A DNA stretch of 64,000 nt from contig OZ242305.1 of NCBI GenBank assembly GCA_965207785.1, positions 342,133 through 406,132 of the forward strand. The letters run 5' to 3'. The position numbers were made by a program, and so were the translations under genes. The stretch's first letter is position 1. Every line of letters begins with the position of its first letter. Below the pieces are notes generated by a model, which saw only the letters and a program-made list of their open reading frames with translations, had not been told where the DNA came from and did not search any database. This stretch comes from Alphaproteobacteria bacterium. GTDB lineage: Bacteria > Pseudomonadota > Alphaproteobacteria > SP197. This document shows, in pieces, positions 4,205-29,723 of this stretch.

Positions 4205-6076
4205 CTAGCGTTCCCTCAACCGCGACAGGCCGGAGGCGATCCAGCCGGGAGTCCGTTCGCCCGGAAGTGATGGTTCGTCTCCGGCGGGGGCCAGCGTACG
4301 CAGACCGTCTTCGGTGGTTGATCCCAGGCGGGCGGGATTGGCGAGCCACCACACCAGGGGCACTCCGATCATCCAGAAGAATATCTGCCAAACCCAGAGG
4401 GAAGAAAGGCCGAGTGCAGCCGCCTCGTCCGCAAAGATCGGTTCGATGAAGAATGTGTTGCCCAGAATGGCGCCCGGGCCCAACGCGAAGAACGCCCAGA
4501 GCAGCACCAGCGACCATGTCGCGGTTCTTGAGGCCGGCCCGCCGAATGGCACGCGCCACGATGCCCGGAACTCGTTGTGCAGGCGATCGCGAACGTCTCG
4601 TCCGGTGCTGCGTCTGGTGAAGATGGAGACGAGCAGGACTGCGACGACGTTGCACATCAACCCCCAGGCAGCTGAATGGACGGTCAGGGGCCACCGGCCC
4701 CAGGGCAGGTCAAGAAACAGACCCTCGAAAAGCACGAGTCCGGGCGGCTCGGTGAAGATGACGACGAGCCCGCCCAGGACGATGCCGGTCAGAATGGCAC
4801 CGCGGCTGATCCATGGCACGAAGGTGAAACCCAGGATAGCGGGCGTCAGCTGAACCGAGAGAGGCAGCACCGCACTGGCGAGAATTGCTGACGTGAGGGG
4901 TGAAAAGGCGGCCAGAATTGCCACCGAAATGAAGGCGCCGGCCAGCGCAACCCGTGTCGCGAAACGCTCGGCGCGACGGCTGAGTCCCGGAAAGATGTCG
5001 CGAAACAGCAGGTCCCTTGCGAGCAACAGGGTTCCTCCGGTGACGAAGAAGGCTACGGTCAGCTGGGCGATGACGACAAGGCCGAGGACCGCTCCTGCAC
5101 CGGCAAGGACATTCACCCTCGCCAGCATGGTAGCGAGGGTGGCCACGTCGCCGTCCATTCGTGCGGCAAGGAAGGGGACTGCAAGCACCAGGACGGCCCC
5201 GACAAGGCCGGCCATGAGCCAGACGTGCGTCACCGCGAAGGCGCGGCCCGGTCCGGTGGTCATGCCGAGATGGAGGAACATTGGCGACAGCACGACGCCA
5301 ACCAGGGTGAGAGCTGCCGACACGACGCCGACAGTCGTGAAAATGCCGCCGGCCGGCACGTCCTTGCCGATACCTGCTGCATACTGGACGACACCTGGAA
5401 TGCGGTCGGCGAGAATGTCGTCGGCTACCGGGATCGACGTCCGCAGAAATCCCCCGTCCGCGAGTACGCCTTCGCCAAAGAAGACCGCAGTGGCAAGGGC
5501 GACGACGACAATGGCGGACTGCATCCCGGCCACCAGGACGACGGCGCGCCAGCCACCGATGACAGCGGGCAGGAAGAGCATGAAGGCCAGAGTCCAGATG
5601 GCGACCCGGTGCGGTATGGCGCCATCCGTTGCAATGTCGATGATGGCGCCGGCATCGGCCAGTACATGGGCAGCGAAGGGAAGGGCGAAGAGGGCTGTCA
5701 GTCCGGCGACGAAAAGGCGCAGGGCGGTGCTTTGGTAGTACCAACCCATCATCAGACCAGGACTGGCAAGTCCGGCGATCCGTGCTCCCAGCCACAGTCG
5801 CTTGAGGACCAGGACTGCGGTCAGGGCAGCGATGATGATGCCGACGCCAACGTGGTTGGCCTGCAGTCCGTAGCGGTCCACGAGGGCGAGATGGTCCGTC
5901 AGGCCGAATCCGGCGAGCACCACGCCGGACGCTGTGAACGCGAAGGCCCAACCGGGGATGTCGCTGCCACCGTCGATGAATGTTCCGGGTGCTCGGCCGA
6001 TACGCGCCACCATGGCCGCGATGTAGACACCGTAGAGCGCCAGCACGGCGACGGCTGTGGCCATGATTGTCGTCAC
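4205..6076 (-). CDS. sodium:solute symporter (SSS) family-like transporter
   Basis: 623 aa, about 13-14 TM. N-terminal FIDGGSDIPGW and the GGWRAVVLVAGMQ segment resemble SSS signatures. GTG start overlaps the upstream stop (GTGA); alternative ATG at 6064. Confidence 0.6.
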   Translation of the reverse strand: MTTIMATAVAVLALYGVYIAAMVARIGRAPGTFIDGGSDIPGWAFAFTASGVVLAGFGLTDHLALVDRYGLQANHVGVGIIIAALTAVLVLKRLWLGARIAGLASPGLMMGWYYQSTALRLFVAGLTALFALPFAAHVLADAGAIIDIATDGAIPHRVAIWTLAFMLFLPAVIGGWRAVVLVAGMQSAIVVVALATAVFFGEGVLADGGFLRTSIPVADDILADRIPGVVQYAAGIGKDVPAGGIFTTVGVVSAALTLVGVVLSPMFLHLGMTTGPGRAFAVTHVWLMAGLVGAVLVLAVPFLAARMDGDVATLATMLARVNVLAGAGAVLGLVVIAQLTVAFFVTGGTLLLARDLLFRDIFPGLSRRAERFATRVALAGAFISVAILAAFSPLTSAILASAVLPLSVQLTPAILGFTFVPWISRGAILTGIVLGGLVVIFTEPPGLVLFEGLFLDLPWGRWPLTVHSAAWGLMCNVVAVLLVSIFTRRSTGRDVRDRLHNEFRASWRVPFGGPASRTATWSLVLLWAFFALGPGAILGNTFFIEPIFADEAAALGLSSLWVWQIFFWMIGVPLVWWLANPARLGSTTEDGLRTLAPAGDEPSLPGERTPGWIASGLSRLRER

Positions 6077-6534
6077 AAGCGTGCCCGGTTTCGGCGTACC
6101 CGCGACGATGGCCTCGGATTGTTGTCGCGGATGATGTCAAACTTCCGGAACGCAGCGCGCGTGCCGTGGCGTGTCACCATGGTGAGGGCGACTGCGACGA
6201 CGAGGCTCGTCATCCCGGTTGCGATGGTGAGAAAGAAGGATTCATAGAATCCATCTATCAGGACCATCGCGCCAATGAAGGCGTTCAGCGCAGCGAGAAA
6301 CAGGACCATGCCGGCACCTGTTTCTCGCGCCGTGAATCCGGTTCCCAGGGCGGCATTGATGATGATGTGGCCGGCGAACCCGGCGAGGATGACGACAAAG
6401 CCCCCGGCAACCCACCAGGATCCGTCAGCGGCAAACCCGTGATTGAACAACATCGCTGCGACAAGGCCGACGGGCAGCCAGAGGGCCATGACCAGGGCGT
6501 GGCGATCAAGCCGCGCCTGTTGTCCGGACGCCAC
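6073..6534 (-). CDS. small 4-TM membrane protein with a basic C-terminal tail, function unknown
   Basis: 153-aa ORF with four hydrophobic segments, a GTG start 11 nt after the flotillin stop, and a stop overlapping the symporter start. No family recognised. Confidence 0.45.
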   Translation of the reverse strand: MASGQQARLDRHALVMALWLPVGLVAAMLFNHGFAADGSWWVAGGFVVILAGFAGHIIINAALGTGFTARETGAGMVLFLAALNAFIGAMVLIDGFYESFFLTIATGMTSLVVAVALTMVTRHGTRAAFRKFDIIRDNNPRPSSRVRRNRARL

Positions 6535-6545
6535 CGCTCAGAACC

Positions 6546-8744
6546 TCAGGCGTCGTCGCTGTCCGTCTTCTTCGGCGCGGTCTCGGGAAAGTTGCGGAAC
6601 GACATGCCGCCGGCCGATCCCAGGTTCTTGAGCGGAAGCCCGATCTCCTCCATCAGGCCATCGACGAACGCCACCTGCGTCCGGTACTTCATGGCCGAGT
6701 TCACCACCCGGTCCGAAACGTTGTCGGATCCGCCTCCTCCCGGCCCGCCTACGCCTTCCGATGGGCTGTTCAGCCCCGGCAGGCCGTCGACCTGGAGAAT
6801 CTTGATGGACTCGATGTTCTCCATTGGCTTCACGGATTCCCGAATCACTTCAGGCAGCGTCCTGACGAGGTGCTCGTAAATGGCGCTGCGGCGACTCTCG
6901 TCAGTGCGCAAGTTCTCGGCCTCGTTGAGTTTCCTGTGACCTTCAGCGTCCGTCTGGTAGCGCACTTCGGCAGCTTTCGATTCGGCGATTTCGGCCTCGG
7001 CTCTCTTTTCCATGGCGACCTTGTGGCCTTCGGCGTTCCGCACGAGGCGCATGTACTCGCGCTCGACCTTGGCCTCGGCGTCGATGATCTCGATGCGCTT
7101 GTTGCGTGTCGCGATCTCTTCGGCCCGGACAGAGTCGATCCGGGCTTCCGTGGCGGCAAGGTTGCGCCGGGCTTCGGCCTCATTGGTGAGTGCGACGGCT
7201 TCCTCGATCTGCTTGTTGATCACGGCGATCAGGCGTTCCTTGTCGGCTATCTCGATCTGCATGTCCTGTTCGATCTCGAAACGATCGATGAACTTGCGCG
7301 CAGCAATGCGCATTTCCTCGAGCGCCCGGTTGGCAGAAATCGCCGCGTCCTCGGTATTGCGGAGGCTCCCGGTTTCCGCGAGCTTGATGGCCTGCTGCTT
7401 GGCAATGTCGCGTTCCGACACCTCCTGATCGGTCTCGAGGCGCGCCAATTCCACGGCAAGGCGCTTGGAGATCGCCGCGCGCTCCTGTTCGCTCGCGGCC
7501 TGTTCCGATGAGACCCGGACCTCCTTCTCGGCCTCGACCCCGAGGAGTTCGATTTCCCGCTGCTTGGCGATGCGTTCCGCCTCGACTGCCCGTTCCCTGT
7601 CAAGGCGGGCCTTCTCGATCTCTGAGTGGGACTGCGAGTCGAAGACCTCGATTTCCATTTCGGACCTGATGGATGCCTCGCGGACCTGGCGTTCACGCTC
7701 GATCCGTTCAGCCTCGATTTGCTGGCGGCTCTGGATGCGTTCGGTTTCAAGCGTCGAATGGGTTTCGATGTCGATCAGTTCGGTGTCGCGCTGCTTCTCG
7801 ATCTCCTGGGTGCGGATGTGGTTCTGCGAGCGGATGCGTTCGAGTTCAATGGCCTGTTCCTTGGTGATGCGCAGGAGCTCGCTCTCCTTGTCGGCCTTGA
7901 GTCGGGCCTCCACCACGGCGATCTCCGAACTGGAGCGTTCCGCTGCAACCTCGGCGAGCTGCATTGCCTTGCGGTTCTCGATGTCCCGGGCCTGGTCGAT
8001 CCGCGCGATTTCCAGGTCGCGGTCGATCTCGAGTGCGCGCTGCTCCGCCTCGAAGTCCTTCATCTTGATGTCGATGCGCGCCTCGTTTTCGATCCTGTTG
8101 CGTAGCTTGCGTCGATCCTCGACCTGTTCGGTCAATTGTGTGAGGCCTTCGGCGTCAAAGGCATTGGAAGGGTTGAAGATCGCGATGTCCGACTGGTTGA
8201 GGGATGTCAGCGATGCGTTCTCAAGTTCGAGTCCATTGCTCTCGAGGGTGCCTGCAGCAAGTTCCGCGGCCTGGCGGATGTACCCGCCACGATCCTGGTG
8301 GATCTCCTCCATGGTCATGCGGGCGGCGACGGCGGCCATGGCATCGACAAAGCGGCCGTGGATGACTTCCTTGACGGCCATCGCGTCCTGGGTCTTGGCG
8401 CCAAGCGTGCGCGCGGCGGTGGATACCCCCTCCCGTGTCGCGATGACGCGGACAAAAAACTCGGCGACCAGATCGATCCGCATCTTGTTGTTCGTGATCA
8501 GCGACTGTTCGCCGGTGCGCCGGACCTCGACAGGGATGGCGTTCATGTTGACGACGGTGATGTCATGGACGATGGGGATGACGAGCGCGCCGCCCCCCAT
8601 CACGACTTTCTCGCCACCGGCGCCCGTGCGCACGAAGCTCTGGTCCTTCGACGAATGGCGATAGAGCCAGTGCAGCAGATAAACCCCGACGGCGATCAGG
8701 ATCGTCAGCAGGATGATGATTGCGATAGCGTCAGCACCGTTCAT
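6546..8744 (-). CDS. flotillin-like SPFH/band-7 protein (YqiK-like) with a very long coiled coil
   Basis: N-terminal TM helix, SPFH core (FVRTGAGGEKVV...IPVEV...RIDLVAEFFVRV), then about 450 aa of E/R/A/I-rich heptad-like sequence with recurring ERI units. Confidence 0.85.
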   Translation of the reverse strand: MNGADAIAIIILLTILIAVGVYLLHWLYRHSSKDQSFVRTGAGGEKVVMGGGALVIPIVHDITVVNMNAIPVEVRRTGEQSLITNNKMRIDLVAEFFVRVIATREGVSTAARTLGAKTQDAMAVKEVIHGRFVDAMAAVAARMTMEEIHQDRGGYIRQAAELAAGTLESNGLELENASLTSLNQSDIAIFNPSNAFDAEGLTQLTEQVEDRRKLRNRIENEARIDIKMKDFEAEQRALEIDRDLEIARIDQARDIENRKAMQLAEVAAERSSSEIAVVEARLKADKESELLRITKEQAIELERIRSQNHIRTQEIEKQRDTELIDIETHSTLETERIQSRQQIEAERIERERQVREASIRSEMEIEVFDSQSHSEIEKARLDRERAVEAERIAKQREIELLGVEAEKEVRVSSEQAASEQERAAISKRLAVELARLETDQEVSERDIAKQQAIKLAETGSLRNTEDAAISANRALEEMRIAARKFIDRFEIEQDMQIEIADKERLIAVINKQIEEAVALTNEAEARRNLAATEARIDSVRAEEIATRNKRIEIIDAEAKVEREYMRLVRNAEGHKVAMEKRAEAEIAESKAAEVRYQTDAEGHRKLNEAENLRTDESRRSAIYEHLVRTLPEVIRESVKPMENIESIKILQVDGLPGLNSPSEGVGGPGGGGSDNVSDRVVNSAMKYRTQVAFVDGLMEEIGLPLKNLGSAGGMSFRNFPETAPKKTDSDDA

Positions 8745-8797
8745 TGTCGTGTCCTCGTCTCGAGGCTCGCGCCTCTTGCGGTTGGATGGATATCACC

Positions 8798-9487
8798 TCA
8801 GAACCGTTCCTGACCTGCGACCGCCAGGATTATGAGCGACGGCGTGATGAGGTTGATCAGGTCAAAGAGCGTGTAGAGTGCTACGATACTCGGCGATTGT
8901 CCCGTTCCGATCACCACATCGACAAAGTGCAGAATGGGATAGATCGCCCAGCCGACAGTCATGATCAGGCGGATCCAGAAGTAACCCAGGCGCACCGCCC
9001 GGCTCTGCCGACGGACGACGTCGGCCAGGGGGCCGAAGTAGAACTCTCCGAGGATGTAGAGCCAGAAGCCGATGGAGAGCAGTACACCCAGAGTCGGATT
9101 GAAGAAGCCTGCGTCGCCCAGGTAGCGCGCGAACACCATCAGCAGCGCGGCGGCTGCCGTGCGCCAGAAAATTCCCACCGGGGGTTTCGCCAAGGCGCGC
9201 ACGAAGAAGTACATGGCCGCGACCTGCAACGGGTGCACCGTGAACCAGGCGGCAAAGCGGATGCCCCCGCTTGACGCTCCTCCTTGCAGCCACAGGGACG
9301 CCGCGCCGGCATAGTGCAGCGCCGACGCCAGGGTGGCGACGGCTACCATTGCCACCGGAATCCGCCACTTTTCGGAGGACCAGCTCAGGCCCGCGAGACA
9401 CAGGACTGCGGTAGAGAAGGTGGCCAGTGCGGCGATGACGAAGCTGCTGGCGACCACGTGCTGCGAGGTGTAGAGAACTCCGAACAT
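8798..9487 (-). CDS. proteorhodopsin-family (Bac_rhodopsin) homolog lacking the Schiff-base lysine
   Basis: 229 aa, 7 TM. By-eye alignment to green proteorhodopsin: EKW..HY (helix B), RFAAWFTVHPL vs RYIDWLLTVPLL (helix C), YLGDAG vs YMGEAG (helix D), GWAIYP identical (helix F), LYTLFDLINLI vs IYNLADFVNKI (helix G). The lysine position is Leu. Confidence 0.8.
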   Translation of the reverse strand: MFGVLYTSQHVVASSFVIAALATFSTAVLCLAGLSWSSEKWRIPVAMVAVATLASALHYAGAASLWLQGGASSGGIRFAAWFTVHPLQVAAMYFFVRALAKPPVGIFWRTAAAALLMVFARYLGDAGFFNPTLGVLLSIGFWLYILGEFYFGPLADVVRRQSRAVRLGYFWIRLIMTVGWAIYPILHFVDVVIGTGQSPSIVALYTLFDLINLITPSLIILAVAGQERF

Positions 9488-9497
9488 GTCCTTCTCC

Positions 9498-10901
9498 CTA
9501 GACTTGTGCCCTGATGTGCGCCGAACGTCCGTAGAGAGCCACCATGGGCAAGATCAGGAGGCCGAAAATGAACTGCTGCCACTCGTACTGAAGTCCGATT
9601 CCGATCAGAAACGAACTCAGCACCTGAAGCACCAGGACACCGATGACCGTGAACCCGTAACCGCCGTAGCCGCCGAGCAACGACGTGCCGCCGATGACGA
9701 CGGCCGCCAAAGTCGTAAAGAGGTAGGGATCGCCGACTCCGATGAAACCGCCTCCTGACCAGCCAAGAAGCAGCGACCCTGTCAGGGCGGCGAACACTCC
9801 GGACAGAACATAGGCGAGGGTCCAGTACTTGAACTCCGAGACGCCGATCAGCCTCGCTGACTGGCGGTTGCCGCCGAGGCCGTAGAGGTGGCGTCCCCAT
9901 GCCGTATGGCGCAGGCCGATGATGATGACCGCGGCGATGACGACCCAGATCAGGATGGTCGGTGGAAAGGCCAGACCGAAGGTCTCGCCATTCATCGCCG
10001 CCAGATTCTGCAGCCACGAGGGAACCGTGCCGAATACGTTGCCACTGAATGCCGTGCCGATGGATGTCAGGATCTGCACGAGTCCGGCGATGCCGAAGCC
10101 GATGCCCAGCGACACGATCAGCGCCTGGCCCTGCAGTCTGAAACTCAGGACCCCGTTCAGCAGGCCGATGAGACCGCCGATCAGAAGGACGAAACCGAAG
10201 GCGACGTAGGACGGCACACCGAGGCTGATCAGAAACAGCAGCCCGATGTTCGCGGCGCCGATCACGAAGGGGATCGAGAGGTCAAGTCCGCCCATGAGGG
10301 CCACCAGCGTCTGACCGACGCAGGCGATGCCGAGGAACGAGGCGAACAGCAGGATGGCCTTCACGTTCGTACCGGAGAGAAACCCGTCGATGGTGAACGA
10401 GGAGATGACGATCAGGGCGGCGAGGACGATCAGCCCGATGAAGGCGCTTCGCCCGTGGGCGAAGCGCCCTGATACCTTGAAGGCGAAGAGAAGGATCGCC
10501 TCCAGAACCAGAAAGGCGATGAGATTGGTCACTGTCCGGAAGGATTCAACCGAAGCGGTGATGATGAGGTAGGCGAGCAGCAGCAGGCCCATGGCGATAA
10601 TCATCACGCGATTTGACTGCCACACGCCCCTTGCGCCGCTGGCCGGCGCCCTGGTCCCGGTACTGCGGGACTCGAACATGACCACGATGTAGTTGAGGAG
10701 CCACAACAGCACCGCAACCGACACGACAGTGGAGACGATGACGTCCTGGGCCGCCAGCCCCTGACCGAATCCGACCCCGAAGCCGATGGCGGCCACGATC
10801 AGTGCCGCCGCCAGGTTGATCCAGATCATGAACGCCGACCGCGGCATGGGTATAAGCTGCATCCTTGAATCGCGCTCGGCGGGAGGCCGTTCCTCAGTCA
10901 T
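9498..10901 (-). CDS. sugar-type ABC transporter permease (BPD_transp_2, RbsC/AraH-like) with an N-terminal 2-TM extension
   Basis: 467 aa. Canonical permease core from about residue 95, preceded by about 92 extra residues. ATGA overlap with the upstream permease. Confidence 0.8.
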   Translation of the reverse strand: MTEERPPAERDSRMQLIPMPRSAFMIWINLAAALIVAAIGFGVGFGQGLAAQDVIVSTVVSVAVLLWLLNYIVVMFESRSTGTRAPASGARGVWQSNRVMIIAMGLLLLAYLIITASVESFRTVTNLIAFLVLEAILLFAFKVSGRFAHGRSAFIGLIVLAALIVISSFTIDGFLSGTNVKAILLFASFLGIACVGQTLVALMGGLDLSIPFVIGAANIGLLFLISLGVPSYVAFGFVLLIGGLIGLLNGVLSFRLQGQALIVSLGIGFGIAGLVQILTSIGTAFSGNVFGTVPSWLQNLAAMNGETFGLAFPPTILIWVVIAAVIIIGLRHTAWGRHLYGLGGNRQSARLIGVSEFKYWTLAYVLSGVFAALTGSLLLGWSGGGFIGVGDPYLFTTLAAVVIGGTSLLGGYGGYGFTVIGVLVLQVLSSFLIGIGLQYEWQQFIFGLLILPMVALYGRSAHIRAQV

Positions 10902-12265
10902 GGCGACATTCCTCCGAACACGGTCATGTCACCCTGGACCATCACCAGCGCGAACAGCGCGATCACGAGAACCGCAAGCAGGACGTAGGTGAAGAGACCG
11001 AGCTTTTGCCGGCGGGCCTCGGCGCTCATCAGCCGCACCGCCAGCGTCACTGCGGCCGCGGCGACGACGATGCCAAACGCGATTCTCTGGAGAAGCGAAA
11101 ACCGCGGCACTGTCGCCTCGGCACCCGCGGGCGCGACCAGGAGGTAGCGTGTCGCAAGGTCGGCGTTTTCCGCTGCGGCGGGGCCTTCCGCCGGCAGGTA
11201 GGAGCCGGAGGTTGCCACATGCAGCAGGATGCCGGCGACGACGGTGCCGAGAACCAGAAACGCGCTCCAAGGCGATATGAACGCGATGTGCCGGGCAACG
11301 ATCGGGACCAGGAGAGTCAACAGCAGGGACAGAACCAGGATGATCCCGTAGCTCATCTGCGTGACGAATGCCTGGATGGCACCGAAGTTGAGCGTCGCGA
11401 GGACGTAACCGATCAGGTAGAGGTTCAGTGCACCGAGAAGGGCGCCCGTGACACCGCCTCGGCCGCCGGCCAGGCTGACACCGCCGAGCACGAGCGCAGT
11501 GACAGCCGTCAGGGTCATGGTCGTACCCTGAGTCGGATCCCCTGAGGCGATGAGAGCGGTGTAACAAATGGCGCCCAGTCCGACGAACAGACCGGCGATG
11601 ACGTGGGCGCCGATGCGCACGACGTAGATGCGCACCCCGCTGGTCCAGGCCGCCCGCTCGTCGTACCCCATCATCCTCAGGTTGCTGTAGAACCGCGTCA
11701 GTATGAAGAGCAGCCAGCCGACGGTGGCGATCACGACGATCAGAAGGACCGGCGAGAAGATCGTGGTGCCACGGCCCCAGCTTGCCATCCATTCCGGTGC
11801 CAGACCGCCGGGGCGTGGGAGGATGACCAGGTTGATGCCCGATAGCGCCAGGAATCCGGACAGCGCGACGATAATCGGCTGAACCCGGACCCAGATCACC
11901 ACGAGAGCAAAGAACAGCTGATAGAGAACGCCCAGCCCGAGTGCCACCAGGAAGACGCCGAACGGGCCGGTGACCAGATCCAGCATGTTCAGCTTGACGA
12001 TCGTCACGTTGATGAAGGCAAGTAACGGGCCGACGGCAAGGTCGATGGTGCCGCGGCCGGCGATGGCAAGTGACATCAGCGCGTAGGTCGCCAGAGTCAG
12101 CGGAGCGGCGACGATGATGGCGCTGCCGATTCCCGACATCGAGACGAGATGCGGACCGCGGATGGCAGCTGTCGACAGCAGCACCATGATGAGCGCGATC
12201 GGCACCAGGAGATAGGTGTTCGTCGTCGAGGTGCGTTCTGACATCCCGGTCAGGCCCGCAGCCAT
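10898..12265 (-). CDS. sugar-type ABC transporter permease (BPD_transp_2) with a C-terminal 3-TM extension
   Basis: 455 aa. Canonical core ends near residue 325 and is followed by about 130 extra residues with three hydrophobic helices. Confidence 0.8.
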   Translation of the reverse strand: MAAGLTGMSERTSTTNTYLLVPIALIMVLLSTAAIRGPHLVSMSGIGSAIIVAAPLTLATYALMSLAIAGRGTIDLAVGPLLAFINVTIVKLNMLDLVTGPFGVFLVALGLGVLYQLFFALVVIWVRVQPIIVALSGFLALSGINLVILPRPGGLAPEWMASWGRGTTIFSPVLLIVVIATVGWLLFILTRFYSNLRMMGYDERAAWTSGVRIYVVRIGAHVIAGLFVGLGAICYTALIASGDPTQGTTMTLTAVTALVLGGVSLAGGRGGVTGALLGALNLYLIGYVLATLNFGAIQAFVTQMSYGIILVLSLLLTLLVPIVARHIAFISPWSAFLVLGTVVAGILLHVATSGSYLPAEGPAAAENADLATRYLLVAPAGAEATVPRFSLLQRIAFGIVVAAAAVTLAVRLMSAEARRQKLGLFTYVLLAVLVIALFALVMVQGDMTVFGGMSP

Positions 12266-12292
12266 GATTCAAGCGCCGGGCGCGGCCATTGC

Positions 12293-13231
12293 TCAAAGTT
12301 CGATCACGCGGCGCGGATCCGCTTTCGGGGACTGCTGCGGCCTGGCAGCCGGTCCGGACAGCGAACGGCCTTCCCCGCGTCGCTGCGGATCGTTCTGCAG
12401 GATCTTCTTGAGGACCGGCGCCACGACATTCTTGAACTTTTCCGGATCTTCGGAGGTCGGGAAGTGCCCGCCGGAAAAGATGATGCACTCGCAACCCTTG
12501 ACTTTCTCCGCCGTGCGCTCGGTCATTTCGGGCGTACAGGCGAAGTCGTAGTCGCCGGTCAGGAAGTAGAGGGGCAGTCGCCCCGAAATCCTGTGCACCT
12601 TGTCGCGGTAGTCGCTGTCGACGGAGTAGTAGTAGAGGTCCCCCTTGAAGATGCCCGGTCCGCCCTGTGCATAGTACCACCAGGTTTCCCAGCGGTACTG
12701 GTCCGGACTCTCCGGCGACATCAGGCCGAACACCGATGTCGCCACGGCCTCGCCTCCATGTACGTGCGGGTGATGCAGTGGGTCGATCCACCATCCCGGC
12801 GAGTGGTCGCAGGCTTCCAGTGCGATCAGCGCCGAAAACTCGTTCTCGTAGTTGAGGGCGAGTTCAAGGCAGATGTTGCCGCCCATCGACTGGCCCATGA
12901 TGACCGGCTTGTCCAGATCGAGGGCGCGGCAGAAGGCGACAATGAACTCTGCGTAGAACCGCGACGTCAGCTTGTATTCATCCTCCATCAGGTAGAAGTC
13001 CTCGGGAGGAATCGATTTTCCATGCCAGGGCAGGTCGAATGCGATCATGCGGAAATTCGACGAGAAGTCCGGCTCGCAAAGCTGATGGCGATACTGACGG
13101 CAGTCGGTGCCGGCGGTGTGCAGGCAGACCATGGGAATGCCCTCGCCCGTTTCCTCGTAGTATGTCCTGTAGGTCTTTCCCTCGCAGGTCACGTAAACGT
13201 AGCGTCCGATGATGGGATCATGCGGGTTCAT
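12293..13231 (-). CDS. alpha/beta-fold hydrolase
   Basis: Nucleophile elbow GQSMGG, LHTAGTD oxyanion region, C-terminal GGHFP histidine. Start at MNPHDP (ATG 13231), preceded by GGAGAG. Confidence 0.8.
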   Translation of the reverse strand: MNPHDPIIGRYVYVTCEGKTYRTYYEETGEGIPMVCLHTAGTDCRQYRHQLCEPDFSSNFRMIAFDLPWHGKSIPPEDFYLMEDEYKLTSRFYAEFIVAFCRALDLDKPVIMGQSMGGNICLELALNYENEFSALIALEACDHSPGWWIDPLHHPHVHGGEAVATSVFGLMSPESPDQYRWETWWYYAQGGPGIFKGDLYYYSVDSDYRDKVHRISGRLPLYFLTGDYDFACTPEMTERTAEKVKGCECIIFSGGHFPTSEDPEKFKNVVAPVLKKILQNDPQRRGEGRSLSGPAARPQQSPKADPRRVIEL

Positions 13232-13245
13232 CGTTGTTCTCTCCG

Positions 13246-13650
13246 TCAGATTTCGCGCATCAGTGCGAGCATGCGGGTCAGTGCCCTCACGTTTTGCCAG
13301 AACGACAACTGATTGCCGTCGATCACCAGCTGCTTGTGCAGCGGATGCGCCATGGCCCAGATGTCGTTGAACATGGGCGGGGGCACGGGTTGGCTGAACT
13401 TTTCCCATGCGCTCGAGGGCGCGCGCAGGGCAAACTCGAAACCGAAGTCGTTCGGAGTCAGGCCCTCCGAAATACGGACGATCTTGCCCTTCTGGACCTC
13501 GAACAGGAATTCGGTGTCGTCAAAGGCGATCAGGAACCGGTGATTGAAGAACCTGCCGATGGTCGGCAGGATCCTGTCTTCATTGACGCGACGCGCCCAG
13601 CGCTCGACCCATTCAAGGTCGAAACTGGCTCTGCGGCCATATCTGCTCAT
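13246..13650 (-). CDS. small SCP2-like (sterol/lipid carrier fold) protein, tentative
   Basis: 134 aa from MSRYGRR (ATG 13650, GGAGGA upstream). The pattern FLIAFDDTEFLFEVQKGKIV...FEFALRAPSSAW...LVIDGNQLSFWQNVRAL resembles SCP2/UbiT-like domains. Family assignment is by eye only. Confidence 0.45.
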   Translation of the reverse strand: MSRYGRRASFDLEWVERWARRVNEDRILPTIGRFFNHRFLIAFDDTEFLFEVQKGKIVRISEGLTPNDFGFEFALRAPSSAWEKFSQPVPPPMFNDIWAMAHPLHKQLVIDGNQLSFWQNVRALTRMLALMREI

Positions 13651-13687
13651 GAGGTCCTCCTGTCGGTTCAACAGTAACGTGCATGCG

Positions 13688-15853
13688 TCATGCGGCGGGT
13701 AACGGAGTGCGGGCGGGTCCGTAGACCGCGGTGAACGAGGCCTGGTCGATCGCGACCGGCAGGACCGCCGCACCGAAAGCGGCGAGGTCCGCGTCCGCCG
13801 CAACGCCAATTCTGGGCACCTTGAGTGCGTATAGCGTGAAGACATAGCGATGCTGGCTGTCTGGAGGCCACGGACCGCCCCAGCCGCGGCCGAAGCCTGG
13901 TATGCCGAAGGTCACGAAGTCGGAATTGAGTTCCAGGGCGGCGTCCGGAAGCGTCTGGCCGCTGGCTCCTTCCGGCAGTTCGCGAACGTCTCCTGGAATG
14001 TTGCAGACCAGCCAGTGAGCGAAACTGCGTGGAAAGTTGAAGGCTTCCGGCACGTCCGGGTCGGTGACCGACAGCGCGAAACTTCGCGTGCCGTCTGGTA
14101 CGCCGGACCAGGAGAGGGCCGGCGATTTGGTGCTTGATTCACAGAACCGGTCCGGCACCACCGAGCCCTGGGGAATGTCCGGGGCGCCGAAGAGAAAGCC
14201 TGACTGGTTCATCTTGTCCTCCAAGACGGTTGAAGACACCAATGGCACCGGTCGGCCGCCTGGCCGCCCATCCGACGGAAACGGCGCTGTTGCCGGTTGT
14301 CGCCCGAGTCGGTCGGCGTCATGACCGCCTGCCGACAGGACCGCGCCGCTGCGCCGGCCGAACATGGCGTTGAGAATATCGTGACCGTCGAGCGGCGGCG
14401 AGAACTCCGCTGAGATGGCGCCGTTGCGGAACACGTGCACCCGGGTGCAGAGATCGAGGAATTCCTCGATTTCGGACGACAGAAACACGACCGCGTTGCC
14501 GCGCGCCGCGAAGGCCCTGAGATTGTGATAGAGGTCGCGTTTGGCACCGACGTCGATGCCGCGGGCGGGATCGTTCAGGACCAGGACCGAAGGCTTTTCC
14601 GCAAAGGCGCGGGCGATCAGGACCTTTTGCTGATTGCCGCCCGAGAGGGATGTGACAAGATCGTCAGATGAACCCATCCGCACATCGAGTCGCCCGGACT
14701 CCCACTCGAAGACGGGGCGGAGTTTTGTCCGGTTGATCAGGTTGAGCCAGCCGCCGGTCCGATACTCCCGGTAGACCGGAAGCAAGAGGTTCTCGAAGAT
14801 GCTGAGATTGGCGAAGATTCCTTCCTTCGCGCGGTCGCCGGAGACATAGCTGATGCCGTTCTCCCGAGCCGAGCGGAGATCGTCGACCGGGACTGCCGTC
14901 TTGTTGCGGACGATGGCGATGCGGCCCTCCACCATCGCCTGGACTCCCGCGATGGCGCGGACGAAGTCAGCGTGTCCGTGCCCGTCGAGTCCTGTGATGC
15001 CGACGATCTCGCCGGGATGAATTGTGAAGTCGAAAGAACCGGCGCCGGCCCACACCCGCGCTCCGAGAACGCGCAGGAGAGGATGATCCGACATGCGGGA
15101 GACCGGATCCTGAGATGCGCACTCCCCGTGTCGGCCCTTGCCGGCGATCATGTCCACGATCCGGGCTTCGCTGATGTCCTGACTTGCCAGGGTGCCGATC
15201 GAACGCCCGTCGCGAAGCACGGTGGCGCTGTCGGCAATGCGCACCAGTTCGGCGATGCGATGGGTGACGATCATGATTGTGCAACCCGCGGCCTTCATCC
15301 GGCGCATCTTGCTGAACAGCCGTTCCGTGGAGTCGAAGTCGAGGGCTGCCGACGATTCGTCGAGGATCAGGACCTTGGGGTCGGTCAAAATCGCGCGGGC
15401 GATGGTGACCCATTGCTTGATCGACAAGGGGAGTTCGACGACGGCAAGGTCAAGGTCGAGTTCGAATCCGAGAAGCTCCATCATCAGTTCGCCGGCTGCG
15501 CGGTAACGCTCCTCCCTGGCAACCGGAGTGCCGAGCAGACTGTCGGCGCCAAGATAGAGGTTGTCGAGAACCGAGCACTCGTCGGCGACCAGAACTTCCT
15601 GAAAGACGTTTGAAATGCCCAGTTCCCGGGCTTCGTAGGGAGAGCTTGCGGACTTGCCGAGAATCGAGACGTGGCCGCTGTCGGGGATCAGCACCCCGGA
15701 GATCACCTTCGCAAGCGTGCTCTTGCCGGATCCGTTGCCGCCAATGATCGCGTGAATCTCGCCCGCCGACGCGCGCAGCGACACACCGTCGAGGGCAACC
15801 GTCGGGCCGAAGGCCTTGCTGACGTCGGAAATCTCGACGGTGGCAACGGCCAT
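13688..15853 (-). CDS. tandem-NBD sugar ABC ATPase (RbsA/MglA-like) fused in frame to a C-terminal PEBP/YbhB-YbcL domain
   Basis: Walker A GGNGSGKST, LSGGNQQK signature, and a second degenerate NBD. About 50 aa of low-complexity linker follow, then a 174-aa PEBP-like domain (TDPDVPE...HWLVCNIP...GPWPPDSQHRYVFTLYAL). Confidence 0.8.
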   Translation of the reverse strand: MAVATVEISDVSKAFGPTVALDGVSLRASAGEIHAIIGGNGSGKSTLAKVISGVLIPDSGHVSILGKSASSPYEARELGISNVFQEVLVADECSVLDNLYLGADSLLGTPVAREERYRAAGELMMELLGFELDLDLAVVELPLSIKQWVTIARAILTDPKVLILDESSAALDFDSTERLFSKMRRMKAAGCTIMIVTHRIAELVRIADSATVLRDGRSIGTLASQDISEARIVDMIAGKGRHGECASQDPVSRMSDHPLLRVLGARVWAGAGSFDFTIHPGEIVGITGLDGHGHADFVRAIAGVQAMVEGRIAIVRNKTAVPVDDLRSARENGISYVSGDRAKEGIFANLSIFENLLLPVYREYRTGGWLNLINRTKLRPVFEWESGRLDVRMGSSDDLVTSLSGGNQQKVLIARAFAEKPSVLVLNDPARGIDVGAKRDLYHNLRAFAARGNAVVFLSSEIEEFLDLCTRVHVFRNGAISAEFSPPLDGHDILNAMFGRRSGAVLSAGGHDADRLGRQPATAPFPSDGRPGGRPVPLVSSTVLEDKMNQSGFLFGAPDIPQGSVVPDRFCESSTKSPALSWSGVPDGTRSFALSVTDPDVPEAFNFPRSFAHWLVCNIPGDVRELPEGASGQTLPDAALELNSDFVTFGIPGFGRGWGGPWPPDSQHRYVFTLYALKVPRIGVAADADLAAFGAAVLPVAIDQASFTAVYGPARTPLPAA

Positions 15854-15883
15854 GTCAGATGTTCCGGCAGGCCCGCAAGGCCG

Positions 15884-15921
15884 GGCTCGCCACTGCCCGG
15901 CTTGCAGGGCAGTGGCGAGCC
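15884..15921 (-). terminator. perfect 15-bp stem-loop between the SBP and ATPase genes (attenuator or mRNA stabiliser)
   Basis: GGCTCGCCACTGCCC (15884-15898) pairs with GGGCAGTGGCGAGCC (15907-15921), 8-nt loop, no clear U tract. Confidence 0.45.
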
Positions 15922-15956
15922 ATTACCCGTTCCTTTCGGGCAACGAGGGCCAAACG

Positions 15957-17153: not shown

Positions 17154-17505
17154 GGGTCCTCCCTTCACTGCATTGTTTCAAGTGACCGACATGGTCGTTG
17201 ACGCTTCAGCGCAACCTCGCCGCCGGTCCGGGCGGCAAATCTACACCATGTCCACAATTCAGGAACAGCCCAAAGTGACACCCCCGCGCGCAGTTTGGGC
17301 CGGGCGAATCGCCGCATCACCGCGTGGCCTCGACAACGCGCCAGGCACCGGGTCATGAGCTTCGGCGTTCCATCCGTCGACGTCGGTATCCGGGCATGGT
17401 GCCGAGTGTTCCTTCAAGCCGGCGGACAACGCCGCGATGCCGAGACTTCCCTTCGGGTCGGGGTGGCGGCAAAGTCGTTGCTGACAAGTCAGTCCGGAGA
17501 TCTTC

Positions 17506-18045
17506 ATGACGGTGTCGTCCACATTCCGCCTTTCGCCCCTCGACCCGGGTGCATGGGATCCTGTCCTGCGGGATGTGCGGCGCCGGATCGGGCAGCCACT
17601 CAACATCCATGGGGTGATAGCTCGCCATCCGGACCTCATGGCGGCGTATGCCCCCTTGCGCGAACACGTGGTGAGGGGTTCCTCGCTCGAGGCGGGGCAC
17701 CGGGAACTCGTGATTCTGCGCGTCGCCCACCGCACCGAGTGTGACTACGAATGGCGCCACCATGTGGAGCGCGGCCGCAGGGCCGGCCTTGACGATGAGC
17801 GGATTGGTCGCGTGAGGCAAGGAAGTGAAGCCCCCGGCTGGTCGCCGGAAGAATCACTTCTGCTGCGCGCGGTGGACGAGATGCTCGATGAGAATGAACT
17901 CAGGCCAGAAACCCTTGATGCAATGGGCAGCGCATTTGGCGATAGGCAGATTCTCGACTTCGTGTTTGTCGTTGGCGTCTACGTCATCATGTCGACGTTG
18001 CTGAAATCCGCGCGCGTGCCGCTTGAGGACGAATTCACGGACTGA
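17506..18045 (+). CDS. carboxymuconolactone decarboxylase (CMD/AhpD-like) family protein
   Basis: RELVILRVAHRTECDYEWRHH motif region typical of CMD domains. Confidence 0.8.
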   Translation: MTVSSTFRLSPLDPGAWDPVLRDVRRRIGQPLNIHGVIARHPDLMAAYAPLREHVVRGSSLEAGHRELVILRVAHRTECDYEWRHHVERGRRAGLDDERIGRVRQGSEAPGWSPEESLLLRAVDEMLDENELRPETLDAMGSAFGDRQILDFVFVVGVYVIMSTLLKSARVPLEDEFTD

Positions 18046-18159
18046 CCGGGGAGGGACTCTCCTTGCCATTGGACCTTTCGCCGTTGCGAGTCGCCGGTTC
18101 CCCGGCAACAGCAGAACGCACTGTGGTCACAGGCCAATGAGGGTCTGCAGGAGGATGAC

Positions 18160-20192: not shown

Positions 20193-20208
20193 CCGGGGGA
20201 GAGGATTC

Positions 20209-29630: not shown

Positions 29631-29723
29631 GGCATCGTCGATCCTGTTGTGGGGTGTCATGGTTTGCCTCGTCACGGCGGTGGATGCAAGATGGGTCCCT
29701 GATCCCTGCATTCTGGTCCTGGA

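What the first reader, a model, noticed from the sequence alone, without database searches (positions are those of the whole stretch)
6546..9487. Rhodopsin homolog and flotillin gene adjacent and apparently co-transcribed (FArhodopsin-like pair in a high-GC genome)
The rhodopsin-like gene ends 53 nt before the start of a 732-aa SPFH/flotillin gene on the same strand. The spacer holds only a GAGGA ribosome-binding site and a 5-bp hairpin. As I recall, flotillin-associated rhodopsins (FArhodopsins) were described as a divergent proteorhodopsin clade in streamlined aquatic bacteria (SAR11, HIMB59, Pseudothioglobus). Freshwater relatives lacked the lysine, and membrane-microdomain involvement was proposed but not shown. 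Here the same pairing occurs in a large, high-GC, catabolically rich genome with an AVA motif. That would broaden the distribution and offer a more tractable host type.
Basis: partly seen in the sequence, partly recalled or inferred. Interest (0 to 1): 0.8.

Follow-up and report, generated by a model that had tools for sequence, protein, structure and literature searches.

The report
Retinal-free rhodopsin–flotillin transport operon
The rhodopsin-like gene and the flotillin gene are a genuine "flotillin-associated rhodopsin" pair inside a 10-gene transporter operon, and the same operon occurs in many culturable soil and marine Alphaproteobacteria, so its unknown, probably light-independent function can now be tested in the lab.

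Summary
A 229-aa rhodopsin homolog (8798-9487, minus strand) ends 53 nt before a 732-aa SPFH/flotillin gene (6546-8744). The spacer holds a GAGGA site and a weak 5-bp hairpin.

The rhodopsin is a FArhodopsin. Its best solved relative is PsFAR. It keeps the FAR hallmarks (Ser55, pocket-blocking His85, bulky Arg121). It lacks the retinal lysine (Leu213) and the counterion (Ala80).

It belongs to the lysine-less "freshwater, unknown taxon" branch already listed in Haro-Moreno et al. 2023.

The pair is not a two-gene unit. It sits in a tight 13-kb, 10-gene operon (4205-17248):
- binding protein
- ABC ATPase fused to PEBP
- SCP2-like protein
- alpha/beta hydrolase
- two permeases
- FAR
- flotillin
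- small membrane protein
- divergent SSS-fold transporter

Nine of these genes have orthologs in the published marine FAR cluster.

The operon is syntenic wherever the contig is long enough among 80 loci sampled from 152 species with a FAR homolog. About 24 of those 80 are cultured strains (Mesorhizobium, Roseovarius, Ruegeria, Paracoccus).

Most likely FAR is a retinal-free membrane partner of a flotillin scaffold around nutrient transporters.

Verdict: a new member of a known kind. It is useful because it supplies tractable hosts.

The parts
4205..17248 (-). The whole module: a 13-kb, 10-gene operon that is the compact form of the FAR gene cluster
   Evidence: This block is exactly the stretch of nucleotide homology (88%) with the close relative L001, whose flanks are unrelated. 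Gene order and strand are the same in every one of the 80 loci that is long enough. Intergenic gaps run from -4 to 103 nt.
15957..17168 (-). Periplasmic substrate-binding protein of a CUT2-type ABC importer (403 aa)
   Evidence: Pfam Peripla_BP_4, 124 bits. It is 49% identical to SAR11 FAR-cluster cds21.
13688..15853 (-). Tandem ABC ATPase fused to a C-terminal PEBP (phosphatidylethanolamine-binding protein) domain (721 aa)
   Evidence: Pfam ABC_tran x2 plus PF01161 PBP at residues 567-711. The ATPase part is 51% identical to SAR11 cds20. The PEBP part was found in 61 loci and is absent from the plasmid-type variant.
13246..13650 (-). Small SCP2-fold (lipid or hydrophobic-ligand carrier) protein, 134 aa
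   Evidence: The ORF has a caGGAGG site. It is conserved in 70 loci. It is about 30-32% identical to SAR11 cds04, which carries the 'SCP2 sterol-binding superfamily' label. There is no Pfam or PDB sequence hit. The AF2 model (pLDDT 71.5) has its top 26 Foldseek hits all in the SCP2 fold.
12293..13231 (-). Alpha/beta hydrolase (312 aa from Met60 of the maximal ORF); nucleophile motif G-Q-S-M-G
   Evidence: Pfam Abhydrolase_1. It is 44% identical (E 5e-86) to SAR11 FAR-cluster cds05, and the alignment starts at Met60. The nearest solved structures are only generic esterases, C-C hydrolases and lactonases.
10898..12265 (-). ABC permease 1 (455 aa, with an extra C-terminal membrane segment)
   Evidence: Pfam BPD_transp_2. 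It is 54% identical to SAR11 cds18. It overlaps permease 2 by 4 nt.
9498..10901 (-). ABC permease 2 (467 aa, with an extra N-terminal segment of about 150 aa); its stop is 10 nt before the rhodopsin ATG
   Evidence: Pfam BPD_transp_2. It is 60% identical to SAR11 cds17. The junction was read. The spacing to FAR has a median of 9 nt in 78 loci.
8798..9487 (-). FArhodopsin, lysine-less branch (229 aa). Key residues: Ser55, Arg77, Ala80, Val84, His85, Ala91, Arg121, Asp209, Leu213
   Evidence: dN/dS is 0.06-0.16 against relatives.
8745..8797 (-). 53-nt spacer with GAGGA (8756-8752) and a 5-bp GNRA-loop hairpin (8775-8762); no terminator
6546..8744 (-). Flotillin (732 aa): N-terminal transmembrane helix, SPFH domain, long coiled coil, C-terminal Flot domain
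   Evidence: Pfam Flot and Band_7. It is 40% identical over 419 aa to the SAR11 FAR-cluster flotillin. Its N-terminal 60 residues are its most conserved part across all cluster types.
6073..6534 (-). Small membrane protein of about four hydrophobic segments (153 aa), family unknown. It starts 11 nt after the flotillin stop and overlaps the next gene by 4 nt
   Evidence: There is no Pfam, NCBIfam or PDB hit. It is conserved in 76 loci, with invariant R11, H12, H56, N60 and E71.
4205..6076 (-). Very divergent sodium:solute-symporter-fold (SLC5/SSS, LeuT-fold) transporter (623 aa)
   Evidence: There is no Pfam, NCBIfam or PDB sequence hit even with a profile. It is 22% identical (E 1e-17) to SAR11 cds09 'sodium/solute symporter'. 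The AF2 model has pLDDT 80 and pTM 0.86, and its top 34 Foldseek hits are all SSS/SLC5 transporters.

Best explanation
The two genes are a true FArhodopsin-flotillin pair of the lysine-less branch. They are transcribed as internal genes of one 13-kb, 10-gene operon (4205-17248, minus strand). This operon is the compact, single-operon form of the 'FAR gene cluster' described in SAR11, HIMB59 and Pseudothioglobus.

**What is shown**
- The rhodopsin has no Schiff-base lysine (Leu213) and no counterion (Ala80).
- It keeps the residue that fills the retinal pocket in the solved PsFAR structure (His85), and has a bulky Arg121 at the second blocking position.
- It is under strong purifying selection.
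- It is always followed by the flotillin gene.
- It is always embedded in the same set of genes: a CUT2-type ABC importer, an SCP2-fold carrier, an alpha/beta hydrolase, a small membrane protein and an SSS-fold transporter.

**What is inferred**
- The protein is a retinal-free, light-independent seven-helix protein, probably pentameric like PsFAR.
- It serves as the membrane-embedded partner or client of the flotillin (SPFH) scaffold.
- Together they organise a membrane patch that holds the two transporters.
- At that patch, the SCP2-like carrier and the hydrolase take over a hydrophobic ester- or lactone-like organic substrate for its first catabolic step.
- Hints to the substrate class come from a plasmid-borne sister version flanked by attJ/attKLM-like genes (lactonase, Fe-alcohol dehydrogenase, succinate-semialdehyde dehydrogenase). 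Further hints come from LysR, MmgE/PrpD, CoA-transferase and acyl-CoA dehydrogenase genes next to many copies.

**My confidence by layer**
- About 0.95 that this is a FAR-flotillin operon homologous to the published cluster.
- About 0.7 that FAR is retinal-free and light-independent here.
- About 0.4 for the scaffolded transport and catabolism model.

The overall figure given (0.7) weights these layers.
For: **Identity**
- PDB: flotillin-associated rhodopsin 9r21 scores 113 bits against about 70 bits for proteorhodopsins.
- The FAR hallmark residues are present (rationale from bioRxiv 10.1101/2025.04.29.651185).
- The NJ tree places the family with the other lysine-less clades (bootstrap 98), sister to the marine FARs.
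- N-termini are identical to 'freshwater unknown taxon' FARs in Table S4 of PMC10308929.

**Cluster orthology to SAR11 AG-390-L03**
- Flotillin 40%.
- Hydrolase 44%.
- SCP2-like about 30%.
- SSS-like 22%, E 1e-17.
- Binding protein 49%, ATPase 51%, permeases 54% and 60%.

**Operon**
- Gaps run from -4 to 103 nt.
- There is no terminator in the FAR-flotillin spacer.
- Synteny is identical in all sufficiently long loci of 80 species.
- The module borders coincide with the operon ends.

**Purifying selection.** dN/dS is 0.06-0.16.

**Folds.** The SSS fold is supported, the SCP2 fold.

**Flotillin.** Its transmembrane and juxtamembrane 60 residues are its most conserved segment across all cluster types. 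That is the pattern expected if the segment makes a specific contact within the membrane.

**Light independence**
- Hosts include soil rhizobia such as Mesorhizobium and the desert-soil isolate Taklimakanibacter.
- The window holds only one rhodopsin homolog.
- The 4.6-Mb Shinella replicon also holds only one.

**Substrate hints.** (att-like genes; pathway as described in PMC4086400; flank census).
Against: - No experiment or expression data were available for this clade, so co-transcription, retinal independence and any FAR-flotillin contact are all inferences.
- The bootstrap for joining the lysine-less clades to the marine FARs is only 56. Membership rests more on synteny than on the tree.
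- In this window the operon has no lactonase, Fe-ADH or LysR gene beside it. The substrate hints come from other genomes and are facultative, seen at roughly a third to a half of loci.
- The permease-FAR spacing (9-10 nt) is tighter than the FAR-flotillin spacing. This fits equally well with FAR being primarily a partner of the ABC transporter.
- The PsFAR structural study found no obvious flotillin-binding adaptation.
- Absence of a canonical proteorhodopsin could be checked for only one replicon.
Confidence: 0.7

Rival explanations
1. FAR is mainly an extra membrane subunit or regulator of the CUT2 ABC importer. Flotillin is a general membrane-organising protein that happens to be co-expressed.
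For: The permease-2 stop is 10 nt from the FAR start in the window, and the median spacing is 9 nt in 78 loci. Both permeases carry unusual extra membrane segments. The same ABC genes are flagged 'All' in the marine FAR clusters.
Against: In the marine clusters the ABC genes lie in a separate, divergently oriented block, whereas FAR is always directly followed by flotillin with a 16-nt spacer. The flotillin is the only flotillin in those genomes and occurs almost only with FAR.
Confidence: 0.15
2. As proposed for marine FARs, the protein forms a hetero-oligomer with a canonical proton-pumping proteorhodopsin inside flotillin rafts and tunes light harvesting in dim light.
For: This is the hypothesis of PMC10308929. 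SAR116 hosts of this clade (L054, L057) belong to a group that often has proteorhodopsin (my own knowledge, not tested here).
Against: The clade is common in soil and root-nodule bacteria such as Mesorhizobium and in sediment isolates. There is no second rhodopsin in the 64-kb window or on the 4.6-Mb Shinella replicon. The lysine and counterion are lost, and all conserved neighbours are transport or catabolic genes.
Confidence: 0.05
3. The protein still senses or uses light through a non-covalently bound chromophore.
For: The rhodopsin fold, Arg77 and Asp209 are retained.
Against: Leu213 replaces the lysine in every member aligned. His85 and Arg121 occupy the positions that block the retinal pocket in the cryo-EM structure of PsFAR, which binds no retinal even though it has the lysine. 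No transducer gene lies in the operon.
Confidence: 0.03
4. The rhodopsin-like ORF is a decaying relic that is carried along passively.
For: The catalytic and chromophore residues are lost.
Against: dN/dS is 0.06-0.16. Identity is 56-95% at a constant length of 229 aa across several alphaproteobacterial orders. There are 45 invariant columns, even with a SAR11 FAR included in the alignment.
Confidence: 0.01

Closest known systems
FArhodopsin / FAR gene cluster of SAR11, HIMB59 and Pseudothioglobus (Haro-Moreno et al. 2023, PMC10308929); PsFAR cryo-EM structures 9r21/9r23 (bioRxiv 10.1101/2025.04.29.651185)
   Same: - It is a rhodopsin of the proteorhodopsin family without the N-terminal leader.
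- It is directly followed on the same strand by a large flotillin gene.
- It has Ser at PsFAR position 54 and bulky residues at positions 84 and 120.
- Nine genes are orthologous: binding protein, ATPase, two permeases, SCP2-like, alpha/beta hydrolase, FAR, flotillin and SSS-like.
   Different: - Here all the genes form one compact co-directional operon, rather than two divergent blocks within about 26 kb.
- There is no lysine (Leu213), and the motif is AVA rather than DTT, DTL or DNI.
- A PEBP domain is fused to the ATPase, and an extra 153-aa membrane protein is present.
- There are no genes for N,N-dimethylformamidase-like, carboxylase, PxpA, Fe-ADH or lactonase proteins.
- The hosts have large, high-GC genomes, are often culturable, and are often not aquatic.
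Lysine-less 'freshwater unknown taxon' FArhodopsins in the same paper (Fig. 3, Table S4)
   Same: The window's family appears to be one of these clades. The N-termini MFGALYTSQDVVSSAFAA... and MFTTLFTSADVVASSLTG... are identical to those of P0017 and P0105. Leucine is one of the four reported substitutes for the lysine. Flotillin is adjacent.
   Different: [quoted passage not shown] Here the hosts are identified as Alphaproteobacteria of several orders. They include about 24 cultured strains as well as marine SAR116 and roseobacters, so the clade is not specifically a freshwater one.
Plasmid-borne sister module in Pararhizobium gei p2, Hoeflea sp. IMCC20628 and Martelella sp. AD-3 (annotated only as 'bacteriorhodopsin' and 'flotillin domain-containing protein')
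   Same: The core is the same: SCP2-like, hydrolase, binding protein, ATPase, two permeases, FAR, flotillin, small membrane protein and SSS-like. The FAR is 38-40% identical and the ABC parts are 53-64% identical.
   Different: The lysine is replaced by arginine and there is no PEBP domain. The module also carries an IclR regulator, an AttM lactonase, an Fe-alcohol dehydrogenase and, in Martelella, a succinate-semialdehyde dehydrogenase. That is an attJ/attKLM-like gamma-butyrolactone pathway.
SPFH scaffolds with a dedicated membrane client, such as HflK/C enclosing FtsH, and Bacillus FloT/FloA (comparison from my own knowledge)
   Same: An SPFH-family protein with an N-terminal membrane anchor is encoded next to the membrane protein it is thought to organise.
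   Different: The client here would be a retinal-free rhodopsin and/or transporters. No NfeD partner gene is present. No structural or biochemical evidence exists for this pair.
Rh-noK, lysine-less xanthorhodopsin-related proteins (cited in PMC10308929)
   Same: It is a microbial rhodopsin that has lost the Schiff-base lysine.
   Different: Rh-noK sits in tandem with a functional rhodopsin and regains pumping when the lysine is restored. Here there is no neighbouring rhodopsin and the pocket itself is blocked.

Membership tests
FArhodopsin (Haro-Moreno et al. 2023) | Type-1 rhodopsin of the proteorhodopsin family that falls in the separate FAR clade | tested here: met
   Pfam Bac_rhodopsin. 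The best PDB hit is PsFAR at 113 bits against about 70 bits for proteorhodopsins. The NJ tree puts it sister to the marine FARs, but with only 56% bootstrap. N-termini are identical to the paper's freshwater FARs.
FArhodopsin (Haro-Moreno et al. 2023) | Flotillin gene immediately downstream on the same strand | tested here: met
   The spacer is 53 nt in the window. This holds in 79 of 80 loci, with spacers of 17-90 nt.
FArhodopsin (Haro-Moreno et al. 2023) | Retinal pocket occluded: aromatic or bulky residue at PsFAR H84, bulky residue at E120, Ser at position 54 | tested here: met
   His85, Arg121 and Ser55 are found by alignment to 9r21. Actual occlusion was not modelled.
FArhodopsin (Haro-Moreno et al. 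2023) | Embedded in the conserved FAR gene cluster (transporters, SCP2, hydrolase) | tested here: met
   Nine orthologous genes were found.
FArhodopsin (Haro-Moreno et al. 2023) | Schiff-base lysine present (marine members only; freshwater members lack it, so it does not define the family) | tested here: not met
   Leu213 is invariant in the family. Leucine is among the substitutes the paper reports.
FArhodopsin (Haro-Moreno et al. 2023) | A canonical proton-pumping proteorhodopsin elsewhere in the same genome (true of all marine hosts) | tested here: inconclusive
   None is in the 64-kb window and none is on the 4.6-Mb Shinella sp. PSBB067 replicon. Whole genomes could not be scanned.
FArhodopsin (Haro-Moreno et al. 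2023) | No retinal binding; pentameric assembly | not testable with these tools
   This needs protein expression, spectroscopy and structure determination.
Flotillin (SPFH superfamily) | SPFH/Band_7 domain plus C-terminal flotillin domain, with a membrane anchor | tested here: met
   Pfam Band_7 at residues 39-183 and Flot at 579-703. There is a hydrophobic N-terminal helix. The protein is far below the cutoff for the Bacillus FloT equivalog (47 bits against 700), so it is a distinct subfamily.
Sodium:solute symporter (SSS/SLC5) family | Sequence match to the family models | tested here: not met
   There is no Pfam, NCBIfam or PDB hit, even with a 27-sequence profile.
Sodium:solute symporter (SSS/SLC5) family | SSS/LeuT-type fold | tested here: met
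   The AF2 model has pTM 0.86, and its top 34 Foldseek hits are all SSS/SLC5, with TM-scores of 0.5-0.7. I therefore file it as SSS-fold, not as a member of a named subfamily.
SCP2 sterol-carrier fold | SCP2 alpha/beta fold | tested here: met
   The AF2 model has pLDDT 71.5, and its top 26 Foldseek hits are all SCP2, with TM-scores up to 0.66. There is no Pfam hit for the window protein; among its aligned homologs one scored E 0.016 against PF02036 SCP2.
attJ/attKLM gamma-butyrolactone pathway (Agrobacterium) | AttM lactonase, AttL Fe-alcohol dehydrogenase, AttK succinate-semialdehyde dehydrogenase and an IclR repressor adjacent | tested here: not met
   These are present beside the plasmid-type sister module and partly in SAR11. 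They are absent from the window's operon. The only Fe-ADH in the window lies 11 kb beyond the operon (28461-30245) and is only 30% identical.

The most novel reading that the evidence does not exclude
The FAR cluster as a whole may be a chemical uptake and catabolism device, not a light-related one. In this reading, a flotillin cage encloses pentamers of a rhodopsin fold that has been repurposed to bind, conduct or flip a hydrophobic small molecule or lipid, for example a lactone-type signal or nutrient. FAR would then work with the SCP2-fold carrier, the PEBP domain and the hydrolase. If true, this would be the first microbial rhodopsin fold with a dedicated non-photic, ligand- or lipid-handling role, and it would overturn the 'twilight-zone light harvesting' interpretation of marine FArhodopsins.
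Probability: 0.2. Interest if true: 0.85.

Novelty: new member of a known kind. Interest (0 to 1): 0.6.

Why it matters
FArhodopsins are abundant in SAR11 and other dominant plankton. Their function is unknown, and until now every host was uncultured. [quoted passage not shown]

This window and its relatives show three things.
- The complete FAR core (rhodopsin, flotillin, ABC importer, SSS-fold transporter, SCP2-like carrier, hydrolase) exists as one compact operon.
- That operon is present in genetically tractable bacteria such as Mesorhizobium, Ruegeria, Roseovarius, Paracoccus and Shinella.
- Many of these hosts live in soil, sediment or root nodules.

This makes knock-outs, substrate screens, co-purification and imaging of a rhodopsin-flotillin complex feasible. 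It also argues that the system is light-independent, which bears on how the marine genes are interpreted in ocean surveys. Finally, database labels such as 'bacteriorhodopsin' or 'blue-light absorbing proteorhodopsin precursor' for these proteins are misleading as evidence of phototrophy.

Tried and rejected
1. **The pair as a self-contained two-gene unit.** Rejected. The upstream permease stops 10 nt before the rhodopsin gene, and ten genes are syntenic everywhere.
2. **The spacer hairpin as a terminator or regulatory element.** Rejected. It has no T-run, its z-score is -1.07, and terminator-like hits in the operon are not clearly above the shuffled expectation (14 against 8.5 +/- 3.0).
3. 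**The ABC transporter link as a novelty of this clade.** Rejected after reading part 2 of Table S2. The marine clusters carry orthologous ABC genes.
4. **Sequence-based naming of three proteins.** Searches of the SSS-like, SCP2-like and 153-aa proteins against Pfam, NCBIfam and PDB, singly and as profiles, gave nothing. Only structure prediction resolved the first two.
5. **Flotillin against PDB by sequence.** No hit.
6. **Rfam scan of the window for a riboswitch that might name the ligand.** None found. The sigma-70 promoter scan also found none.
7. **Table S4 of the paper.** It is stored truncated to the first 47 alignment columns. Only N-termini could be compared, not the motif columns.
8. 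**The first tree script.** It timed out and was redone with a faster distance calculation.
9. **Proteorhodopsin co-occurrence in the host genomes.** Only one 4.6-Mb replicon that happens to be in the plasmid collection could be checked.
10. **Conserved flanking regulator.** The flanks are not conserved. LysR is frequent downstream but absent in the window.
11. **Literature search.** I looked for prior reports of these genes in Mesorhizobium or Roseovarius and found none in the held library.

Full report
**1. The observation**

- A 229-aa ORF at 8798..9487 (-) matches Pfam Bac_rhodopsin.
- A 732-aa ORF at 6546..8744 (-) matches the Flotillin and SPFH/Band_7 models.

The spacer between them is 53 nt (8745-8797). 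It holds GAGGA 7 nt before the ATG and a 5-bp hairpin with a GCGA loop. The hairpin has no T-run, folds no better than shuffled sequence (z = -1.07), and no terminator-like site falls in the spacer.

**2. What the rhodopsin is**

Against all solved structures, the best match is the flotillin-associated rhodopsin PsFAR (9r21): 113 bits, E 1.7e-31. Proteorhodopsins score about 70 bits.

In PsFAR numbering, the window protein compares as follows.

| PsFAR position | Window residue | Note |
|---|---|---|
| Ser54 | Ser55 | Ser in FARs, Ala in proteorhodopsins |
| Arg76 | Arg77 | retained |
| Asp79 | Ala80 | counterion lost |
| Thr83 | Val84 | changed |
| His84 | His85 | retinal-blocking residue kept |
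| Met90 (the proton-donor position; Glu in proteorhodopsins) | Ala91 | changed |
| Glu120 | Arg121 | second blocking position, still bulky |
| Asp209 | Asp209 | retained |
| Lys213 | Leu213 | Schiff-base lysine lost |

The cryo-EM study showed that His84 and Glu120 fill the retinal pocket, and that PsFAR binds no retinal even with its lysine. A protein that keeps the blockers and has also lost the lysine and counterion is therefore very unlikely to bind retinal. That last step is inference.

The gene is not decaying.
- dN/dS against five relatives is 0.06-0.16.
- The family keeps a constant length of 229 aa.
- It shows 56-95% identity across several alphaproteobacterial orders.

A neighbour-joining tree gives 100% bootstrap to the window's family. 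It joins other lysine-less clades (Lys replaced by Arg) at 98%. That group is sister to the marine FARs, but the joining node has only 56% support.

Table S4 of Haro-Moreno et al. 2023 lists 'freshwater unknown taxon' FArhodopsins. Their N-termini are identical to those of members of this family, P0017 and P0105. The paper reports leucine among the replacements for the lysine. The clade was therefore already sampled there, without hosts.

**3. The pair is part of a 10-gene operon that equals the FAR cluster core**

Reading outwards on the minus strand gives the following order.

| Gene | Coordinates |
|---|---|
| Binding protein | 15957-17168 |
| Tandem ABC ATPase fused to a PEBP domain | 13688-15853 |
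| Previously unlisted 134-aa ORF | 13246-13650 |
| Alpha/beta hydrolase | 12293-13231 |
| Permease 1 | 10898-12265 |
| Permease 2 | 9498-10901 |
| Rhodopsin (FAR) | 8798-9487 |
| Flotillin | 6546-8744 |
| 153-aa membrane protein | 6073-6534 |
| 623-aa membrane protein | 4205-6076 |

Gaps run from -4 to 103 nt.

One scan of a representative genome per GTDB species found relatives of the rhodopsin in 152 species, and 80 loci were retrieved. Every locus long enough has the same genes in the same order and orientation. Flotillin follows FAR in 79 of 80 loci. The exception is an 872-bp contig.

The flanks are not conserved. Nucleotide homology with a close relative (L001, 88%) spans exactly 4205-17248 and then stops, and L001 has a transposase fragment beside it. 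The operon therefore behaves as a discrete cassette.

Comparison with the annotated SAR11 cluster (Table S2 of the paper) shows orthologs for nine of the ten genes.

| Window gene | Identity to SAR11 ortholog |
|---|---|
| FAR | about 31% |
| Flotillin | 40% |
| Hydrolase | 44% |
| SCP2-like | about 30% |
| SSS-like | 22%, E 1e-17 |
| Binding protein | 49% |
| ATPase | 51% |
| Permeases | 54% and 60% |

Only the PEBP domain and the 153-aa protein have no marine counterpart. The marine dimethylformamidase-like gene and two small 'All' genes (genes the paper flags as present in all three marine host groups) are missing here.

**4. The uncharacterised members**

The 623-aa protein has no Pfam, NCBIfam or PDB sequence match, even as a profile. 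Its AlphaFold model (pLDDT 80, pTM 0.86) matches only SSS/SLC5 transporters in its top 34 hits, including CHT1, DUR3, SGLT2, NIS, SiaT and vSGLT.

The 134-aa protein models as an SCP2 fold. Its top 26 hits include Thermus SCP2 and UbiJ-SCP2.

The 153-aa protein has about four hydrophobic segments and invariant His and Asn residues in the second one. It overlaps the SSS-like gene by 4 nt, so I regard it as a probable small subunit of that transporter. This is inference.

The flotillin's first 60 residues (transmembrane helix and juxtamembrane stretch) are its most conserved part in all cluster types. They show 63-70% identity to SAR11, against 40% overall. This suggests a specific intramembrane contact, again by inference.

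**5. Hosts**

The hosts fall into three groups.
- **MAGs.** Rhodobacterales, Hyphomicrobiales, Rhodospirillales and Kiloniellales-like.
- **Marine SAR116.** One SAG, AG-916-C06, and one Puniceispirillales MAG.
- **About 24 cultured strains.** These include at least 13 Mesorhizobium strains with genomes of up to 8 Mb. The rest are Roseovarius, Ruegeria sediminis, Paracoccus haematequi, Pseudohoeflea, Microbaculum, Albidovulum, Taklimakanibacter, Pseudoxanthobacter, Cypionkella and Pseudotabrizicola.

The window's closest named relatives are 'Kiloniellales bacterium' MAGs.

[quoted passage not shown] I found no paper in the held library that connects these genes with rhizobia or roseobacters.

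The window holds only one rhodopsin homolog. So does the 4.6-Mb Shinella replicon that happens to be in the plasmid collection.

**6. Clues to function**

A sister module (FAR 38-40% identical, Lys replaced by Arg) lies on plasmids of Pararhizobium gei, Hoeflea sp. IMCC20628 and Martelella sp. AD-3. There the same core is joined to several extra genes:
- an IclR regulator;
- an AttM lactonase;
- an Fe-alcohol dehydrogenase;
- in Martelella, a succinate-semialdehyde dehydrogenase.

This is the gene set of the Agrobacterium attJ/attKLM pathway for gamma-butyrolactone and gamma-hydroxybutyrate.

These plasmid genes are strikingly close to the SAR11 cluster genes: hydrolase 78-80%, SCP2 64%, lactonase 60-65%, Fe-ADH 55-57%.

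I took a census of two ORFs on each side of 61 loci of the window's type.

| Family | Downstream | Upstream |
|---|---|---|
| LysR regulator | 37 of 112 ORFs | 2 of 97 |
| MmgE/PrpD | 20 | 1 |
| Acyl-CoA dehydrogenase | 8 | 5 |
| CoA-transferase III | 4 | 5 |
| HpcH/CitE-like lyase | - | 5 |

None of these is next to the operon in the window itself. The substrate class (lactone, hydroxy acid or organic acid) is therefore a lead, not a result.

**7. Most likely mechanism**

I commit to the following model. FAR is a retinal-free, light-independent seven-helix protein that partners the flotillin scaffold. Together they organise a membrane patch containing the ABC importer and the SSS-fold transporter. 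The SCP2-fold carrier and the alpha/beta hydrolase handle the imported hydrophobic substrate.

- **Shown:** the residues, the selection, the synteny, the orthology and the folds.
- **Inferred:** co-transcription, absence of retinal, physical association and substrate class.

The main rival is that FAR is chiefly an ABC-transporter subunit. The tight permease-FAR junction fits this, but the marine gene arrangement argues against it.

The published idea of a proteorhodopsin helper is hard to reconcile with soil and nodule hosts.

**8. Verdict**

This is a new member of a known kind (a known clade with newly identified hosts), not a new system. Its value is practical: it gives a compact operon in culturable, genetically tractable bacteria, and an argument that FArhodopsins are not about light.

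Noticed in passing
window 13246-13650 (-): A 134-aa gene with its own Shine-Dalgarno site sits between the ATPase-PEBP gene and the hydrolase gene. It is hidden in ORF lists by longer overlapping ORFs. Sources call its homologs 'hypothetical protein'. It models as an SCP2 fold.
   Followed up: yes
window 13688-14170 (-), the C-terminus of the ABC ATPase: A PEBP (YbhB/YbcL-type) domain is fused to the ABC ATPase, which is an unusual architecture. It was found in 61 loci of this module type and is absent from the plasmid-type module; the stored (truncated) marine ATPase sequence could not be checked. Its role is unknown.
   Followed up: partly
window 20086-21426 (+): An ArdC-N plus zincin-metallopeptidase (anti-restriction-like) gene lies about 3 kb from the operon, which hints at a mobile-element neighbourhood. 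PutA (21423-24590) and a DUF1611 / MR_MLE pair (18160-20192) lie nearby.
   Followed up: no
window 17169-18160: About 1 kb upstream of the binding-protein gene has no recognisable gene (the 158-aa ORF has no Pfam hit), no sigma-70-like promoter and no Rfam match. It is conserved only in the closest syntenic relative, L002. The promoter and regulatory region of the operon is therefore undefined.
   Followed up: partly
L001 15299-16996; L002 15308-16282: In L001 (88% nucleotide identity) the 13-kb module sits in a different genomic context with a DDE transposase fragment beside it. L002 is syntenic with the window but has an extra 324-aa NOV_C-domain gene between the operon and the cysteine-desulfurase-like gene.
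   Followed up: partly
L026 (STGF01000099.1, 'Paenibacillus sp. SY21-1', 872 bp); L033 and L043 (MAGs labelled Gammaproteobacteria / Ectothiorhodospiraceae): These loci carry alphaproteobacterial-type FAR genes under non-alphaproteobacterial labels. The tiny Paenibacillus contig looks like contamination. The MAG labels may reflect mis-binning or horizontal transfer.
   Followed up: no
plasmid hits H5 (CP070278.1, 'Dysgonomonadaceae bacterium zrk40', 246,192 bp) and H6 (NZ_CP066788.1, Martelella lutilitoris, 246,197 bp): Two records with near-identical length and identical hit statistics are assigned to unrelated organisms from the same cold-seep source. One record is probably mislabelled.
   Followed up: no
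plasmid hits H11 and H12 (Polymorphobacter megaplasmids, 0.84-0.91 Mb): A 'bacteriorhodopsin-like' gene is found with a proteorhodopsin query (30% identity) but not with the window's FAR. It is a different rhodopsin on megaplasmids of lichen-associated bacteria.
   Followed up: no
database names of homologs: Members of this retinal-lysine-less family are annotated as 'bacteriorhodopsin', 'sensory rhodopsin' or 'Blue-light absorbing proteorhodopsin precursor', for example in Roseovarius indicus and Paracoccus haematequi. Such labels could be misread as evidence of phototrophy.
   Followed up: partly
L057 (SAR116 SAG AG-916-C06) and P0105 (236 contigs, including Tara): The lysine-less FAR module also occurs in marine SAR116/Rhodospirillaceae-type plankton. 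The 2023 paper concluded that only SAR11, HIMB59 and Pseudothioglobus carry FArhodopsins in the ocean.
   Followed up: partly
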